A stretch of 23,179 nucleotides of DNA from a virus. The position numbers and the translations under genes were made by a program. Each line of letters starts with the position of its first letter. The stretch's first letter is position 1. The stretch lies in UHGV virus genome UHGV-0124909. One strand, given 5' to 3'. This document shows positions 3,761 to 6,717 of the stretch, piece by piece. The notes under the pieces were generated by a model, which saw only the letters and a program-made list of their open reading frames with translations, was not told the DNA's origin and ran no database searches.

Positions 3761-3964
3761 TTATTCGCGAGCTTTGAGCATTGCGTCTGCAAACTTATAT
3801 GCAGCGCTTGCTGCATAATTAACAACTCCATCAGAATCATTATCGATAATCGATGGATTGCTAATCATTGCTTGCATAGCCTTTGCCGCGAAGTAATCGC
3901 GTAATGTCGCATCACTTGCCATTTCTGGGCGTTTGATATCTGCTTCATAAAACTCGCACATCAT
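3761..3964 (-). CDS. Hypothetical protein (67 aa)
   Basis: ATGA overlap with the upstream gene; strong RBS GGGAGGTGA. Confidence 0.45.
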   Translation of the reverse strand: MMCEFYEADIKRPEMASDATLRDYFAAKAMQAMISNPSIIDNDSDGVVNYAASAAYKFADAMLKARE

Positions 3965-4257
3965 TCACCTCCCAGAGCCTTGCTGATTGCTGCAAGACCT
4001 TTATTAACAGCTCCATACCATTCTGGATATGTTGTCGTTGTTCTATTTTTGGATTGCTTAAGTAATAACTGAAGTGCTTCGAGAAGGTCAGGTGCTGCCG
4101 CTATTAGATTGGCATCTTCAATACATTGAACTACCTCACAGATTGCAATATACGAACGCCAGCCTGCGCCATTTTCAAGTGAGTCTGCCTGGATTATTTT
4201 AATCTCATCGCCATCCATCATTATTTCCCACTTGCCTTCAGTACCTTTAAATTCCAT
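3961..4257 (-). CDS. Hypothetical protein (98 aa)
   Basis: ORF with a GAGG RBS; intrinsic terminator immediately upstream on the minus strand. Confidence 0.5.
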   Translation of the reverse strand: MEFKGTEGKWEIMMDGDEIKIIQADSLENGAGWRSYIAICEVVQCIEDANLIAAAPDLLEALQLLLKQSKNRTTTTYPEWYGAVNKGLAAISKALGGE

Positions 4258-4278
4258 GTTAGCCTCTGTTGTTTATGC

Positions 4279-4305
4279 CAAAAATAAAGGCCGACTATGC
4301 GGCCT
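4279..4305 (-). terminator. Intrinsic terminator within the PL operon
   Basis: Minus strand AGGCCG-CATAGT-CGGCCT followed by TTATTTTTGG; the hairpin overlaps the stop of ORF 4304..4774. Confidence 0.65.
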
Positions 4306-4774
4306 AGTAGAATACCCAATTTTCTGTTTCTTGGTTGTGTCCAAAGTTATATTCAATATCTGGTGTTGATGTATCAATATTCTTCATCCCATCAACAAGA
4401 GTTGATACAACAGCCAAATCTTGTTTGATTCTCATTAAATGGTATTTCTTCCGGCGCAATAAACTTTCAATGGCAAGTTTCTTCGTTGGGAATGCAAAAG
4501 ATCTTTCTGCATTTTTTGCTACTTTCTTAATTGCATATCTATTTCTCCTTTGTTTCCATTCCTGTAACCACTGATTTGGTGCTGGTTTAAAATTAACAAT
4601 CCAATGCGCAGGAACCAACCATGCATAATGCTCTGTCTGATGAAAAGCTATATATTGAAGTGCGAATATTTTTATCCCATCTTCTTCAACTGTCGCCTGG
4701 AATCTCCAGAAAACAGGCATTCCATCATGTTCAGTTTCTGATTCAGGAAAAGGTACGCTCCATGATTTTGTCAT
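4304..4774 (-). CDS. Hypothetical accessory protein (156 aa), AT-rich
   Basis: RBS GAGGTGAgat-ATG; visibly lower GC than flanking phage genes; terminator hairpin overlaps its stop. No recognisable motif. Confidence 0.55.
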   Translation of the reverse strand: MTKSWSVPFPESETEHDGMPVFWRFQATVEEDGIKIFALQYIAFHQTEHYAWLVPAHWIVNFKPAPNQWLQEWKQRRNRYAIKKVAKNAERSFAFPTKKLAIESLLRRKKYHLMRIKQDLAVVSTLVDGMKNIDTSTPDIEYNFGHNQETENWVFY

Positions 4775-4828
4775 ATCTCACCTCAAATAAGTGGTTTGCT
4801 GCGAAAGTAAATACGCTTAAGTTACCTG

Positions 4829-4966
4829 TTATTTATCCCACCAAGTTCCGTATCTATCTATCCAGTTACACCAATCATCGACACTCCATTTTGTCGTGTC
4901 GCATTTTGGCAACTGGCATGAATATCTACCTTCTTTGTAAAGTCGACGTTTGACTTTCTTGAGCAT
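4829..4966 (-). CDS. Small Cys/Trp-rich hypothetical protein (45 aa)
   Basis: Hand-translated: MLKKVKRRLYKEGRYSCQLPKCDTTKWSVDDWCNWIDRYGTWWDK. Has the same RBS GAGGTGAgcc-ATG as the neighbouring gene. Not in the ORF track because it is under 60 aa. Confidence 0.3.
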   Translation of the reverse strand: MLKKVKRRLYKEGRYSCQLPKCDTTKWSVDDWCNWIDRYGTWWDK

Positions 4967-4974
4967 GGCTCACC

Positions 4975-5076
4975 TCAATCGTAATAAGCTGGAATTGATT
5001 TTCCGCGTTGCTTCTGGCGACCAACACAAGTCACACCCATTTCACTGCGTGGCTTGCTGTAATAAATTCGGTTAGT
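4975..5076 (-). pseudogene. Relic 3' end of an N-antiterminator gene (N C-terminal fragment)
   Basis: Minus-strand frame reads TNRIYYSKPRSEMGVTCVGRQKQRGKSIPAYYD*, resembling the remembered lambda N C-terminus (...WYSKPGERGITCSGRQKIKGKSIPLI) and the C-terminus of the intact N here. No N-terminal part is present. Confidence 0.5.
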
Positions 5077-5085
5077 TCAGACAAT

Positions 5086-5105
5086 AAAAAACCCACCGAA
5101 GTGGG
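5086..5105 (-). terminator. Intrinsic terminator within the PL operon (tL1-like)
   Basis: Minus strand CCCAC-TTCG-GTGGG followed by TTTTTT, abutting the stop of ORF 5106..5444. Confidence 0.7.
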
Positions 5106-5444
5106 CTATGACCATTTTTTATTTGGATTTCGTTGGTGAGCGTGATTAACAACTCTGTGCATTACATCCTCATATTTTTCATCTTCAATTTTTTCGACAT
5201 CGCGAGGAAATGGTGTTGCTAATGCTTTGTCAACTTTATCCATTGGGTCTTCATTAATCTTATATTCAGGACCGTCATCTATAGCATTAAATCCAGGTGT
5301 TACACCGTTTTTTAATGCATATGCTATCCTCTTTTCCCATCTCGCTATTCTCCTCCTGTCTCGAGATGTAAGACCTCTATCAGATACTTTTCTGTTTTGT
5401 CCGCGGTCAGGATTAACATAAATAGTCTTTTTCACCATAAGCAT
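5106..5444 (-). CDS. Hypothetical protein (about 112 aa), AT-rich
   Basis: ORF directly downstream of N (2-nt gap), followed by an intrinsic terminator. Listed start is TTG; first ATG is at 5444. Confidence 0.5.
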   Translation of the reverse strand: MLMVKKTIYVNPDRGQNRKVSDRGLTSRDRRRIARWEKRIAYALKNGVTPGFNAIDDGPEYKINEDPMDKVDKALATPFPRDVEKIEDEKYEDVMHRVVNHAHQRNPNKKWS

Positions 5445-5446
5445 AC

Positions 5447-5752
5447 TCAATAAGCACCGTACGGTAGTTTACTGTACAATTTTATTTTTTGGACTGCATG
5501 TATTTTGTTTCCTAATGGGTTTGAATCTTTGTAATAAATACTTCTATTTTTTCGAACAACTTCTTCTTTCTTCTTGCAGCAAAGGATTCCTAGTGATGCT
5601 GCTTTGTCTGCTTTGACGCAACCAGAGAGCTTTAGCGCAATTTTTCGCGCCAGTGCTTCATTACTGCGTCGCTCGGCAATAAGTTCTGCTCTGCGAGCTT
5701 TGTAGCGGCTTTTTGCCGTACCTTTGGATTCTTTCCAGACAATGGTTACCAT
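5447..5752 (-). CDS. N: N-family transcription antiterminator (phage-21-type arginine-rich motif)
   Basis: Start MVTIVWKES with AGGAG RBS. N-terminal arginine-rich motif GTAKSRYKARRAELIAERR matches the remembered phage 21 N peptide. First gene of the PL operon, with nutL upstream. Confidence 0.75.
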   Translation of the reverse strand: MVTIVWKESKGTAKSRYKARRAELIAERRSNEALARKIALKLSGCVKADKAASLGILCCKKKEEVVRKNRSIYYKDSNPLGNKIHAVQKIKLYSKLPYGAY

Positions 5753-5862
5753 GATGGTCTCCTTTAAGTGGCTTTGGCGCATGACGCGTCGAGGTGCTTA
5801 TCTTCTCGATCGCTGTCTTGCAGCTGCAATTCGCGCCATCCCCAAAACCACTCAAGTTCTGG

Positions 5863-5902
5863 TCTCAACGGTTAGGTTGAGAGTCCGTCGATGTTAAAGA
5901 GC
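5863..5902 (-). promoter_or_regulatory. nutL (boxA plus boxB)
   Basis: Minus strand boxA GCTCTTTAA (5894-5902) followed by hairpin TCTCAAC-CTAACC-GTTGAGA (5863-5882), between PL and N. Confidence 0.6.
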
Positions 5903-5948
5903 CTGCCAATCTGTTCCGTTTGGCTTCCAGCGTCCTGCTGATGGCTTA

Positions 5949-5977
5949 AATTTAAGACTTCTTAATTTATTGGTCAA
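5949..5977 (-). promoter_or_regulatory. PL promoter with overlapping OL operator
   Basis: Minus strand -35 TTGACC (5972-5977) and -10 TAAATT (5949-5954) with a 17-bp spacer; operator-like TTAAG-N4-CTTAA at 5950-5967. Confidence 0.6.
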
Positions 5978-6044
5978 GTGCATTTTTGAAGAAAACTTAA
6001 TTTTATGGGCGTGAATTTAGTTTGTCTTTGATTTTTAACGGGAA

Positions 6045-6066
6045 ATAAAAAAGGGGCGAAAGCCCC
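6045..6066 (-). terminator. Intrinsic terminator immediately after the repressor gene
   Basis: Minus strand GGGGC-TTTC-GCCCC followed by TTTTTTAT, directly after the cI/c2 stop codon. Confidence 0.8.
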
Positions 6067-6717
6067 TTAAGGAAGGTTTGCTAGCTTGGCATCAACGACA
6101 ACGCCAATGATTTTACAGTTCCCATTGATTTCAATCATTGGGTATTGTGGATTGAGTGGTTTCAGGAATTTTCTACCGGCATCAATAACTAACTTTTTGA
6201 ATGTCGCCTCGTTTTCCCCTTCAAGTTTGGCGACTACCAGCTTTCCATTACGTGGTTCGACTTCTGGGTCGACGAGAATAATCATCCCCTCAGGAATACT
6301 CAGTCCTGCCGGGGCAGTCATTGAATCGCCTTTAACGTCGAGCCAAAAAGAGTCTTCAGAACAATCTACCGTTGTGTCGTACCAGTTATCTATTGCACGC
6401 CTATGATATGGCTCTACAGCTTCCATCCAACATCCTGCGCTTACCCAACTAATTAGAGGATACGAACCTCTTGGATCATGCCTGCTGTGATAGGCAATGT
6501 TTGAAAGACTATCCTCTCCTTTCAATAGGTAATCAGGGGAGCACTGCAAAGCCTTGGCTAAGGCCAATAGGTTTTCGCCATTGGGCTCAGTTTCAGATCG
6601 CTCCCATTGGGAAATAGCAACATTAGACACGCCAACCATCTTGCCAAGGGCAGCCTGCCTAATCTTGAGTTCTTTTCTGCGAGCGCGAATACGCTCACCC
6701 ATCAGTTGTGTATTCAT
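6067..6717 (-). CDS. c2: Prophage repressor, P22 C2 / lambda cI family (HTH plus LexA-like S24 autopeptidase domain)
   Basis: MNTQLMGERIRARRKELKIRQAALGKMVGVSNVAISQWER... (HTH), Ala-Gly cleavage region and C-terminal ...GDSMTAPAG...KLVVAKLEGENEATFKKL. Near-identical to my recollection of P22 C2. Confidence 0.9.
   Translation of the reverse strand: MNTQLMGERIRARRKELKIRQAALGKMVGVSNVAISQWERSETEPNGENLLALAKALQCSPDYLLKGEDSLSNIAYHSRHDPRGSYPLISWVSAGCWMEAVEPYHRRAIDNWYDTTVDCSEDSFWLDVKGDSMTAPAGLSIPEGMIILVDPEVEPRNGKLVVAKLEGENEATFKKLVIDAGRKFLKPLNPQYPMIEINGNCKIIGVVVDAKLANLP

What the first reader, a model, noticed from the sequence alone, without database searches (positions are those of the whole stretch)
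4975..5079. Relic N C-terminus downstream of the intact N gene marks a recombination junction
About 370 bp downstream of the intact N stop, beyond an extra gene and a terminator, the minus strand encodes TNRIYYSKPRSEMGVTCVGRQKQRGKSIPAYYD*. This resembles the lambda N C-terminus (…WYSKPGERGITCSGRQKIKGKSIPLI) and the intact N C-terminus here (…NRSIYYKDSNPLGNKIHAVQKIKLYSKLPYGAY). The simplest reading is that a recombination inside an ancestral N gene installed a new N allele plus a passenger gene and terminator, leaving the old 3' end behind.
Basis: partly seen in the sequence, partly recalled or inferred. Interest (0 to 1): 0.5.

Follow-up and report, generated by a model that had tools for sequence, protein, structure and literature searches.

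The report
N-gene remnant behind inserted nun cassette
The roughly 100 bases at 4975-5079 are an untranslated leftover of the tail of the phage antiterminator gene N, stranded when the lambda-exclusion gene nun was spliced into a phage-21-type N gene; this is an ordinary recombination scar shared by hundreds of E. coli prophages.

Summary
The minus strand of 4975-5079 reads *TNRIYYSKPRSEMGVTCVGRQKQRGKSIPAYYD*. This is the last 32 codons of an N gene. Phage N7 has an intact N with this end (31/32 aa), and window 4772-5073 is contiguous there at 97% nt. Phage 21 N matches 5012-5073 at 96.8%.

The "extra gene" at 5106-5444 is Nun, the HK022 lambda-exclusion factor (PDB 6ALG, E 2e-71). About 485 bp (5074-5558) are absent from N7 and phage 21. 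Most of this block is shared with HK022 and holds:
- a different N 3' end of 39 codons, now the C-terminus of the intact N;
- the nun promoter annotated for HK022, which lies inside those codons;
- nun;
- an intrinsic terminator (5090-5107).

The intact N is therefore a chimera of 63 phage-21-type codons and 39 "NPLGNKIHAVQ"-type codons. It is not a wholly new allele.

The remnant has no usable start, lies behind an in-frame stop and the terminator, shows no RNA structure, and is the most variable segment of the locus.

The same terminator-remnant joint follows nun in 58 of 61 evaluable viral contigs. The whole arrangement is in 217 of 5426 complete E. coli genomes.

Verdict: a real but ordinary mosaic-junction scar, of modest interest.

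The parts
5949..5977 (-). pL-like sigma-70 promoter (TTGACC-17-TAAATT) that drives the leftward N operon (context)
   Evidence: Consensus scan. It lies in the block that is 96.8% identical to the phage 21 immunity region.
5863..5902 (-). nutL: boxA (5885-5902, GGCTCTTTAACA...) and a boxB-like hairpin (5863-5882, TCTCAAC-CTAACC-GTTGAGA). This is not the lambda boxB (context).
   Evidence: boxA is transferred from the mEp235 record annotation (offset taken from the gap-free alignment). The hairpin was read directly from the sequence. That it is the phage 21 type of boxB rests on my recall.
5565..5752 (-). 5' 63 codons of the intact N gene: phage-21-type ARM (GTAKSRYKARRAELIAERR) and central region
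   Evidence: 96.8% nt identity to phage 21 N. Residues 8-29 match PDB 1NYB, the phage 21 N peptide. PHROG 271, N-like, E 3e-30.
5559..5564 (.). Upstream crossover: 6 bases (AGAAGT in N sense, codons E63-V64) shared by phage 21, HK022 and the window. Phage-21-like identity lies on one side and HK022-like identity on the other.
   Evidence: Three-way alignments.
5447..5564 (-). Foreign N 3' end (39 codons, ...EVVRKNRSIYYKDSNPLGNKIHAVQKIKLYSKLPYGAY*). It is the functional C-terminus of the chimeric N here and a dead remnant upstream of nun in HK022.
   Evidence: 96.6% identity to HK022. It is homologous to the C-termini of full-length N proteins (...YYKDANPLGNKIHAVQKMKLSSKPLI) found.
5471..5499 (-). 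nun promoter: -35 ATGCAG (5494-5499) and -10 TACAGT (5471-5476), embedded in the N 3' coding sequence
   Evidence: Annotated as the nun gene promoter in phage O276 (an HK022-derived record). The hexamers are identical in the window and conserved in 12 related loci. The generic consensus scan did not find it.
5106..5444 (-). nun, the HK022-type transcription arrest and lambda-exclusion factor (112 aa from MLMVKK; 110 aa from MVKK at 5438)
   Evidence: One aa difference from HK022 Nun. PDB 6ALG chain N, E 2e-71. PHROG 5632, E 5e-71. The ARM and the C-terminal ...HAHQRNPNKKWS are intact.
5080..5107 (-). Intrinsic terminator of the nun cassette: AGCCCAC-UUCG-GUGGGUU followed by UUUUAUUGUC. The stem starts inside the nun stop codon.
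   Evidence: Terminator scan. RNA fold -10.3 kcal/mol, z -3.2. HK022 keeps the hairpin through compensatory changes (CCCGC...GCGGG).
5074..5558 (.). Block of about 485 bp absent from phages N7 and 21, where 13 bp (CGAGCGTAAACAG) stand in its place. It holds the foreign N 3' end, the nun promoter, nun, the terminator and a spacer.
   Evidence: Pairwise blastn and alignments.
4975..5079 (-). The finding: a non-coding remnant of the last 32 codons of a 21/N7-type N gene. Homology runs 4975-5073. 5077-5079 is an in-frame TGA. The stop at 4975-4977 overlaps the Shine-Dalgarno sequence (TGAGGTGA) of the next gene.
   Evidence: No Rfam match. No RNA structure, z +0.28. It is the most variable segment of the locus, pi 0.09-0.10 against 0.014 for nun.
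4829..4966 (-). 45-aa gene (DUF5484; Sf6 gene 36 type). In SfI it directly follows an intact N with this same 3' end; N7 matches the same stretch contiguously but does not annotate the gene.
   Evidence: Pfam PF17583, E 3e-12. PHROG 1871. SfI gene 36 homologue differs by 1 aa.
4783..4802 (-). Second, tiny N remnant: the last 5 codons plus stop of phage 21 N (SKPLI*), followed by GGTGAGAT and the ATG of the 156-aa gene (4304-4774)
   Evidence: blastn 4772-4802 against the end of phage 21 N, 30/31. Also present in N7, SfI, mEp235, PA28 and EC20.

Best explanation
The segment is a pseudogene fragment: the stranded 3' end of a phage-21/N7-type N gene. It is a recombination scar.

Proposed history (inferred):
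- In an ancestral lambdoid phage, nun sat immediately after a complete N gene of the 'NPLGNKIHAVQ' C-terminal type. The nun promoter lay inside the last codons of that N, and nun's own intrinsic terminator followed it. This is a classic prophage-expressed 'moron'.
- An illegitimate join fused the DNA just past that terminator to about codon 68 of a 21/N7-type N gene in another phage. This created the remnant.
- Homologous or homeologous crossovers inside N, here at AGAAGT (codons 63-64), then put a phage-21-type 5' part (nutL, ARM, central region) in front of the foreign 39-codon tail. The result is an intact chimeric N.

How the locus works today (inferred from HK022 and lambda biology):
- In a lysogen, the nun promoter makes Nun, and the terminator at 5090-5107 stops that transcript before the early genes.
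- Nun arrests RNA polymerase only on transcripts that carry lambda boxB. It therefore excludes lambda without harming this phage, whose boxB differs.
- After induction, the chimeric N loads at nutL and lets pL transcription read through the nun terminator.
- The remnant is then merely transcribed as untranslated leader. Its last bases supply the Shine-Dalgarno sequence of the 45-aa gene that followed N in the donor arrangement.
- The remnant itself has no function of its own.
For: Shown:
- The remnant is the C-terminus of the intact N of phage N7 (31/32 aa). It is contiguous there with the downstream 45-aa gene region (4772-5073, 97%).
- Phage 21 N matches both 5530-6100 and 5012-5073, so about 485 bp is missing between them.
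- HK022 matches exactly the complementary block, 5089-5564.
- The ORF in that block is Nun.
- The nun promoter hexamers annotated in O276/HK022 are identical here, conserved in relatives, and lie inside the N 3' codons.
- The terminator is predicted, and HK022 has compensatory changes in its stem.
- The remnant has an in-frame stop at its 5' end and no RNA family or structure.
- Diversity of the remnant is 3-7 times that of the neighbouring segments. The R codon of NRIYY has mutated to L, I or K codons in different copies. In the PA28 lineage the proximal remnant and the terminator are the most diverged parts.
- nun and the foreign N 3' end co-occur in all 66-67 viral contigs found with either anchor. 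58 of 61 evaluable contigs have the same terminator-remnant joint. These include HK022-like contigs with putL instead of an N 5' part.
- 217 of 5426 complete E. coli genomes carry the whole arrangement.
- Full-length N proteins with the NPLGNKIHAVQ-type C-terminus exist, so the foreign tail is a genuine N end.
- The arrangement occurs in isolated, genome-sequenced temperate phages (mEpX1, mEp235, Kapi1), which fits a functional chimeric N.
Against: - The order and number of recombination events cannot be resolved from the sequences. A single insertion of the cassette into a phage-21-type N gives the same structure.
- The nun promoter is transferred from another record's annotation, and the generic promoter scan missed it. 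No expression data for this phage were available.
- That Nun spares this phage's own transcripts rests on known lambda specificity and on a different boxB sequence. It was not tested.
- The synonymous versus non-synonymous comparison of remnant and intact copies was underpowered.
- The stop codon of the remnant overlaps the ribosome-binding site of the next gene, so its last few bases are not functionless.
Confidence: 0.85

Rival explanations
1. The remnant is kept by selection as a cis-acting element. It could be a homology arm ('linker') that lets lambdoid phages swap gene cassettes just downstream of N, or a leader needed for expression of the downstream genes. On this view it is not a neutral scar.
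For: - The same N 3' end, followed by TGA-GGTGAnnnATG, precedes at least six different downstream genes.
- It recurs as a remnant behind unrelated upstream cassettes with several different joints: after 933W-type N, after a P22-type N plus an 88-aa gene, and after a 147-aa gene.
- 50 of 119 scored loci that carry its 23-base core are remnants rather than intact genes.
- In this window the motif occurs twice more (4975-4977/SD and 4783-4802).
- The stop of the remnant overlaps the Shine-Dalgarno sequence of the 45-aa gene.
Against: - In the unbiased nun-anchored sample the remnant is the most variable segment: pi 0.09-0.10, against 0.03 at nun third codon positions.
- It has no predicted structure (z +0.28) and no Rfam hit.
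- HK022, HK75 and O276 do without it.
- Serving as a crossover site is a consequence of shared sequence and needs no selection.
Confidence: 0.1
2. The two N 3' ends arose by a local tandem duplication of the tail of N within one phage. The copies then diverged, and nun was captured between them.
For: The two copies are direct repeats of homologous N codons: NRSIYYKD... and NRIYYSK..., with a 16-base overlap in the blastn matches.
Against: - The two copies are so diverged that the remnant alone gives no BLASTP alignment to this window's own N. Yet each is 96-97% identical at the nucleotide level to a different phage: HK022 for one, and N7 and phage 21 for the other.
- Each type also exists as the sole C-terminus of full-length N proteins elsewhere.
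- This is the signature of exchange between phages, not of duplication in place.
Confidence: 0.03
3. The segment is the genuine C-terminus of a separately expressed small protein, for example one starting at the internal ATG (MGVTCVGRQKQRGKSIPAYYD, 21 aa) or made by read-through.
For: The frame is open for 33 codons and ends in a proper stop. Kapi1's annotators placed the start of a downstream gene inside the homologous stretch, in another frame.
Against: - There is an in-frame TGA at 5077-5079, and no Shine-Dalgarno sequence before the only in-frame ATG.
- The frame differs from that of nun.
- No ORF of 25 aa or more in this frame appears in the ORF list.
- The segment is not annotated in mEpX1, mEp235 or PA28.
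- Missense changes occur at residues that are invariant in intact N.
Confidence: 0.02

Closest known systems
HK022 nun locus (nun, its promoter, its terminator; records AF069308, X16093 and MH547045/O276)
   Same: - Window 5089-5564 is 96.6% identical to HK022.
- Nun differs by 1 aa.
- The annotated nun promoter hexamers are identical.
- The terminator hairpin is kept.
- The 39-codon N tail upstream of nun is present in both.
   Different: - In HK022 the N tail is itself a dead remnant. It is preceded by putL with no N 5' part, and TGG replaces the stop. Here it is fused in frame to a phage-21-type N and is the working C-terminus.
- HK022 lacks the downstream remnant examined here and has IS903 nearby.
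Phage 21 N and phage N7 / SfI N genes (the uninterrupted 'empty site')
   Same: - N codons 1-63 match phage 21 at 96.8% nt identity.
- The remnant equals phage 21 N residues 69-89 exactly and the last 32 residues of N7 N at 31/32.
- The 45-aa gene follows, as in SfI.
   Different: Those phages have one continuous N and no nun. The window has about 485 bp in place of 13 bp.
Morons and mosaic 'novel joints' of lambdoid phages (concept from the HK97/HK022 genome comparison; the 'boundary/linker sequence' idea comes from the HK620 genome paper; both recalled, not read here)
   Same: It is a promoter-gene-terminator unit present in some relatives and absent from others at the same place. It has sharp transitions from about 97% identity to none. 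A gene fragment is left at the joint.
   Different: The unit is inserted inside an essential regulatory gene rather than between genes. It supplies a replacement C-terminus that keeps that gene intact, and its promoter lies within those codons.
mEpX1, mEp235, Kapi1, PA28 and Stx1a-phage N-nun loci (GenBank records)
   Same: They have the same architecture of N, nun, terminator and remnant. mEpX1 is 98.1% identical over 4780-5900. N and Nun are annotated in the mEpX1, mEp235 and PA28 records.
   Different: - None of the records inspected annotates the remnant.
- mEp235, Kapi1 and PA28 carry the phage-21-type end (...KMKLGSKPLI*), not the N7/Sf6-type end plus the 45-aa gene.
- In PA28-type loci N has lost its stop and overlaps nun, and the terminator stem has decayed.

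Membership tests
Lambdoid N antiterminator gene (the remnant as a member) | Significant sequence homology to the C-terminal part of N (by recall, the RNA-polymerase-binding region) | tested here: met
   31/32 aa to N7 N. 21/21 to phage 21 N residues 69-89. 18/27 to lambda N, E 9e-11.
Lambdoid N antiterminator gene (the remnant as a member) | Complete ORF with a start codon, an N-terminal arginine-rich boxB-binding motif and a central region | tested here: not met
   Only the last 32 codons are present. There is an in-frame TGA at 5077-5079, and a terminator lies directly upstream. It is therefore a pseudogene fragment, not an N gene.
Lambdoid N antiterminator gene (the intact ORF 5447-5752) | ARM plus N-family profile match, located just downstream of pL and nutL | tested here: met
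   PHROG 271, E 3e-30. Residues 8-29 match PDB 1NYB. The Pfam N_peptide match is below its cut-off (18.4 against 27.9 bits). Promoter and boxA/boxB lie upstream.
HK022 Nun transcription arrest factor | Full-length similarity, including the N-terminal ARM and the C-terminal residues H98, K106, K107 and W108 that are needed for arrest | tested here: met
   PDB 6ALG_N, E 2e-71, over residues 1-109. One substitution (S to R) against HK022. The C-terminus is ...HAHQRNPNKKWS. The residue roles come from PMC5386594.
HK022 Nun transcription arrest factor | Excludes lambda by arresting polymerase at lambda nut sites; expressed from the repressed prophage | not testable with these tools
   Inferred from near identity of the protein and promoter. 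It needs lysogen exclusion assays and transcript mapping.
Moron (autonomous promoter-gene-terminator insert in a prophage) | Present or absent at the same site among otherwise homologous genomes | tested here: met
   Absent from N7, phage 21 and SfI. Present in the window, mEpX1, mEp235, Kapi1 and PA28.
Moron (autonomous promoter-gene-terminator insert in a prophage) | Own promoter upstream and a factor-independent terminator downstream | tested here: inconclusive
   The terminator is met (and compensatory changes). The promoter is identified only by transfer of the O276 annotation, with identical hexamers. The generic scan did not call it.
Structured regulatory RNA (any Rfam family) | Covariance-model match or a stable conserved fold | tested here: not met
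   No Rfam match at E <= 1 in 4200-6100. The remnant folds no better than shuffled sequence, z +0.28.

The most novel reading that the evidence does not exclude
The last 50-100 bases of N, together with the stop/Shine-Dalgarno/ATG junction, may act as a general 'docking sequence' at which lambdoid phages exchange exclusion and accessory gene cassettes. This would explain why remnants of it accumulate in series (three N tails in this window) and behind many unrelated cassettes. A related possibility is that the 39-codon tail now used by the chimeric N was, in an HK022-like intermediate, a dead fragment serving only as the nun promoter, and was later restored to coding use by an in-frame fusion to a phage-21 N. 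That would be a natural case of pseudogene resurrection and of swapping the polymerase-binding end of N.
Probability: 0.2. Interest if true: 0.5.

Novelty: new member of a known kind. Interest (0 to 1): 0.3.

Why it matters
- It shows how the nun exclusion cassette is carried. In nearly all phages sampled, nun is not a replacement for N as in HK022. It is embedded in the tail of N, with its promoter inside N codons.
- It shows that N tolerates exchange of its C-terminal (by recall, polymerase-binding) tail between diverged types. The chimeras occur in isolated temperate phages and in about 4% of complete E. coli genomes. They are ready-made material for studying that domain.
- It gives annotators a reason not to call or extend ORFs across 4975-5079. 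The annotated start of Kapi1_018 reaches into the homologous stretch.
- It marks the N 3' end as a recurrent mosaic boundary.

None of this changes current understanding of lambdoid genome evolution.

Tried and rejected
1. My first reading was that the remnant had two pieces: a phage-21 part at 5012-5073 and a 209-bp insert at 4803-5011. I dropped this when phage N7 and SfI showed 4772-5073 as one contiguous N-plus-gene-36 arrangement. Phage 21 simply has the other allele of the extreme end.
2. The distal remnant first looked unusually conserved. This was ascertainment bias from anchoring the scan on an exact 23-mer. In the nun-anchored sample it is the most variable segment.
3. Counts of synonymous and non-synonymous changes in remnant versus intact copies contained too few changes to decide anything.
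4. The Rfam scan and RNA folding of the remnant found nothing.
5. The Pfam scan of the remnant and of Nun gave no family. Pfam has no Nun model that matched. PHROGs and PDB identified Nun instead.
6. Literature searches for a description of the N remnant or of N-nun co-occurrence found none. The key papers were not held or could not be searched: King et al. 2000 on nun promoters and the Casjens & Hendrix review were looked up and not held; Oberto et al. 1989 and Juhala et al. 2000 were not looked up. Prior description therefore cannot be excluded.
7. The word-indexed protein search with the 41-aa tail returned only two fragments. The exhaustive phmmer search was needed to find full-length N proteins with that tail.
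8. I looked for a promoter in the remnant for the downstream genes. The scan found none.

Full report
**1. The observation**

The minus strand of 4975-5109 translates as IAHFGGFFIV*TNRIYYSKPRSEMGVTCVGRQKQRGKSIPAYYD*. The reported peptide, its stop (4975-4977) and an in-frame stop just upstream (5077-5079) are all real.

Upstream on the same strand lie:
- a repressor gene (6067-6717);
- a pL-like promoter (5949-5977);
- the intact N ORF (5447-5752);
- an ORF at 5106-5444;
- a hairpin plus T run at 5107-5080 (-10.3 kcal/mol, z -3.2).

The similarity of the fragment to N is not chance:
- Phage 21 N (in DE3) matches 5012-5073 at 96.8%, E 2e-25.
- Phage N7 matches 4772-5073 at 97.0%, E 2e-145.
- The 32 residues match the C-terminus of N7's annotated intact N at 96.9%.
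- They match lambda N at 18/27, E 9e-11.

The remnant alone does not align by BLASTP with this window's own N tail. That relationship shows only via phage 21 N (75/96 over the whole protein).

**2. What the neighbours are**

The window over 4766-5944 is about 98% identical to phage mEpX1, whose records annotate N and Nun here.

The "extra gene" is nun:
- It differs from HK022 Nun by one residue.
- It matches PDB 6ALG chain N at E 2e-71.
- It matches PHROG 5632, "Nun-like transcription termination factor", at E 5e-71.

Nun blocks lambda superinfection. Its N-terminal arginine-rich motif (ARM) binds lambda boxB RNA, and its C-terminal segment jams RNA polymerase (PMC5386594).

The intact N has the phage 21 ARM. 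Residues 8-29 match PDB 1NYB, and the protein matches PHROG 271 at E 3e-30.

**3. The mosaic**

Pairwise blastn and hand alignments give a clean picture.
- Phage 21 matches 5530-6100 and, separately, 5012-5073.
- HK022 matches exactly the block in between, 5089-5564.
- High identity to phage 21 stops, and identity to HK022 starts, within six shared bases (5559-5564; AGAAGT in N sense; codons E63-V64).
- At the other end, homology to phage 21 and N7 resumes at 5073 (AACCG..., codon N70), 16 bases beyond the hairpin stem of the nun terminator.
- About 485 bp (5074-5558) therefore stand where phage 21 has 13 bp.

The block contains:
- 39 codons of a different N tail (...EVVRKNRSIYYKDSNPLGNKIHAVQKIKLYSKLPYGAY*), read in frame with the phage 21 part, so that N is an intact chimera;
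- the nun promoter;
- nun;
- the terminator.

The promoter hexamers annotated in the HK022-derived phage O276 (-35 ATGCAG, -10 TACAGT) map to 5494-5499 and 5471-5476. They are identical here and conserved in a dozen relatives. They lie inside the N tail codons.

In HK022 the same 39 codons are present upstream of nun. There they are preceded by putL instead of an N 5' part, and TGG stands in place of the stop. In HK022 they are therefore a dead remnant.

The HK022 terminator differs by compensatory changes that keep the stem.

**4. The empty site**

Phage N7 has one continuous N ending ...NRIYYRKPRSEMGVTCVGRQKQRGKSIPAYYD*. Its DNA continues through the counterpart of the 45-aa gene at 4829-4966 and on to 4772. 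SfI has the same tail and the same 45-aa gene behind a lambda-type N. That gene belongs to DUF5484 and is the Sf6 gene 36 type.

The ancestral N is contiguous with this 3' end, and ORF 5106-5444 is absent.

A further 20 bases at 4783-4802 repeat the very end of phage 21 N (SKPLI*) in front of the 156-aa gene. The window thus holds three N tails in series. Each is followed by TGA, a GGTGA-type ribosome-binding site and the ATG of the next gene.

**5. How general it is**

217 of 5426 complete E. coli genomes carry at least 80% of 5012-5680 in one piece. About 25 phage records do as well, including mEp235, Kapi1, PA28 and Stx1a phages.

In IMG/VR:
- A pattern from the foreign N tail hit 66 contigs, all with nun.
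- A pattern from nun hit 67 contigs, essentially the same set.
- nun and that tail therefore travel together.
- 58 of 61 evaluable contigs show the same terminator-remnant joint. Only HK022, HK75 and O276-type contigs lack it.
- Two HK022-like contigs with putL have both the upstream tail remnant and the downstream remnant.
- Upstream partners are mostly 21-type, sometimes N7-type. The left crossover differs by a few codons between lineages (EEVVRKNRS, EEVERKNRS, DEVEQKNRR).

The downstream joint is therefore old and single. The upstream one has been remade by recombination within N.

- 64 were intact N genes. Lambda-, N7-, 21- and P22-type 5' parts all carried this same tail.
- 50 were remnants with several other joints. 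One class follows directly after the stop of 933W-type N. One follows a P22-type N plus an 88-aa zinc-finger-like gene and another terminator (also in E. coli EC20). One follows a 147-aa gene.

Stranded N tails are thus a common feature of lambdoid mosaics.

**6. Is the remnant anything more than a scar?**

- It has no usable start. The only in-frame ATG would give 21 residues and has no ribosome-binding site.
- No ORF of 25 aa or more in this frame is listed.
- There is no Rfam hit and no fold better than shuffles (z +0.28).
- In the nun-anchored sample, which is unbiased with respect to the remnant, nucleotide diversity is 0.09-0.10 in the remnant. It is 0.014 in nun, 0.030 at nun third positions and 0.029 in the functional N tail.
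- The arginine codon of NRIYY has become CTA, TTA, ATA or AAA in different copies.
- In the PA28 lineage the proximal remnant and the terminator are the most diverged parts.

Part of the high diversity reflects exchange with different N-tail alleles. All of it fits absence of constraint. Only the last bases matter, as the ribosome-binding site of the 45-aa gene.

**7. Origin of the foreign tail**

An exhaustive phmmer search found full-length N proteins with various ARMs that end ...NRTYYKDANPLGNKIHAVQKMKLSSKPLI. The tail is therefore a genuine N C-terminus of a diverged subfamily.

The stop-to-ATG junction before nun (CTTATTGAGTATGCTTATG) resembles the usual junction after N (CTTATTTGAGGTGAGATATG). 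This suggests nun once sat in the ordinary first slot after a complete N of that type.

The most economical history has three steps:
1. an N(x)-nun-terminator ancestor;
2. one illegitimate joint to about codon 68 of a 21/N7-type N;
3. later crossovers inside N, or replacement by put in HK022.

A single insertion of the cassette into a phage 21-type N would give the same structure. The order of events is inferred, not shown.

**8. Comparison and verdict**

This is the HK022 nun moron in its commonest genomic setting, with a mosaic-junction gene fragment behind it. The arrangement is already in public records with N and Nun annotated. None of the records inspected annotates the remnant, and I found no paper describing it.

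It is a new, well-documented example of a known kind of feature. Interest is modest.

Noticed in passing
window 4783-4802 (and 4772-4782): A third, tiny N remnant: the last five codons and stop of phage 21 N (SKPLI*), then GGTGAGAT and the ATG of the 156-aa gene. The window therefore has three N tails in series, each directly before the start of another gene.
   Followed up: partly
window 4829-4966 and 4304-4774: The 45-aa gene is DUF5484 / Sf6 gene 36 type (PHROG 1871). The 156-aa gene is PHROG 1636. Both have unknown function, and both sit in the variable slot after N, where exclusion genes such as nun (and, by recall, sieB) are usually found.
   Followed up: partly
L011 (E. coli EC20, NZ_CM169481) 1501-2172: A P22-gp24-type N is followed by an unrelated 88-aa gene with a C2H2-like motif (CPLCGRKFSAKAAWKHINDYH) and its own terminator. 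The same N-tail remnant then follows, starting at the same base (AACCG). This is a different cassette in the same slot. RefSeq also annotates a 'tRNA-OTHER' between the repressor and N (2361-2441).
   Followed up: partly
L022, L024, L026 and about 24 other IMG/VR loci (class b): In 933W/H-19B-type loci the stop codon of N (TGA) lies inside GGTGAC. The last 17 codons of the 21-type N tail follow directly as a remnant before the next gene.
   Followed up: partly
L006 (PA28) and L013 (STEC17-183) 1500-2240: In the Stx1-phage lineage the chimeric N has lost its stop (...PYGLIEYAYGEKDYLC*) and overlaps the start of nun by about 30 bases. The nun terminator stem has also decayed (GTGGGT to ATAGAT).
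   Followed up: partly
L012 (CPww7) and IMG/VR loci L137, L144, L153, L162, L175: Several nun genes are truncated to 52-92 aa before a stop. Some of these may be contig ends. CPww7 is annotated with only a 73-aa C-terminal ORF, so nun may be decaying in some prophages.
   Followed up: no
L007 (Kapi1) 1459-1518: The annotated start of Kapi1_018 lies 60 bases upstream of the start used for the homologous mEp235_037 and reaches into the N remnant. This is probably an over-extended gene call.
   Followed up: no
protein P0013: This is a 118-aa predicted protein. Its first ~49 residues resemble the 98-aa protein of window 3961-4257 (PHROG 1273). The rest is the central and C-terminal part of an N protein. 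It appears to be a fusion ORF from another mosaic joint.
   Followed up: no
window 5454-5463: The 10-base palindrome ACCGTACGGT sits in the last codons of the chimeric N (…LPYGAY). It lies where this tail is about 10-12 bases longer than the usual …SKPLI* end, just downstream of the nun -10 hexamer. Its significance is unknown.
   Followed up: no
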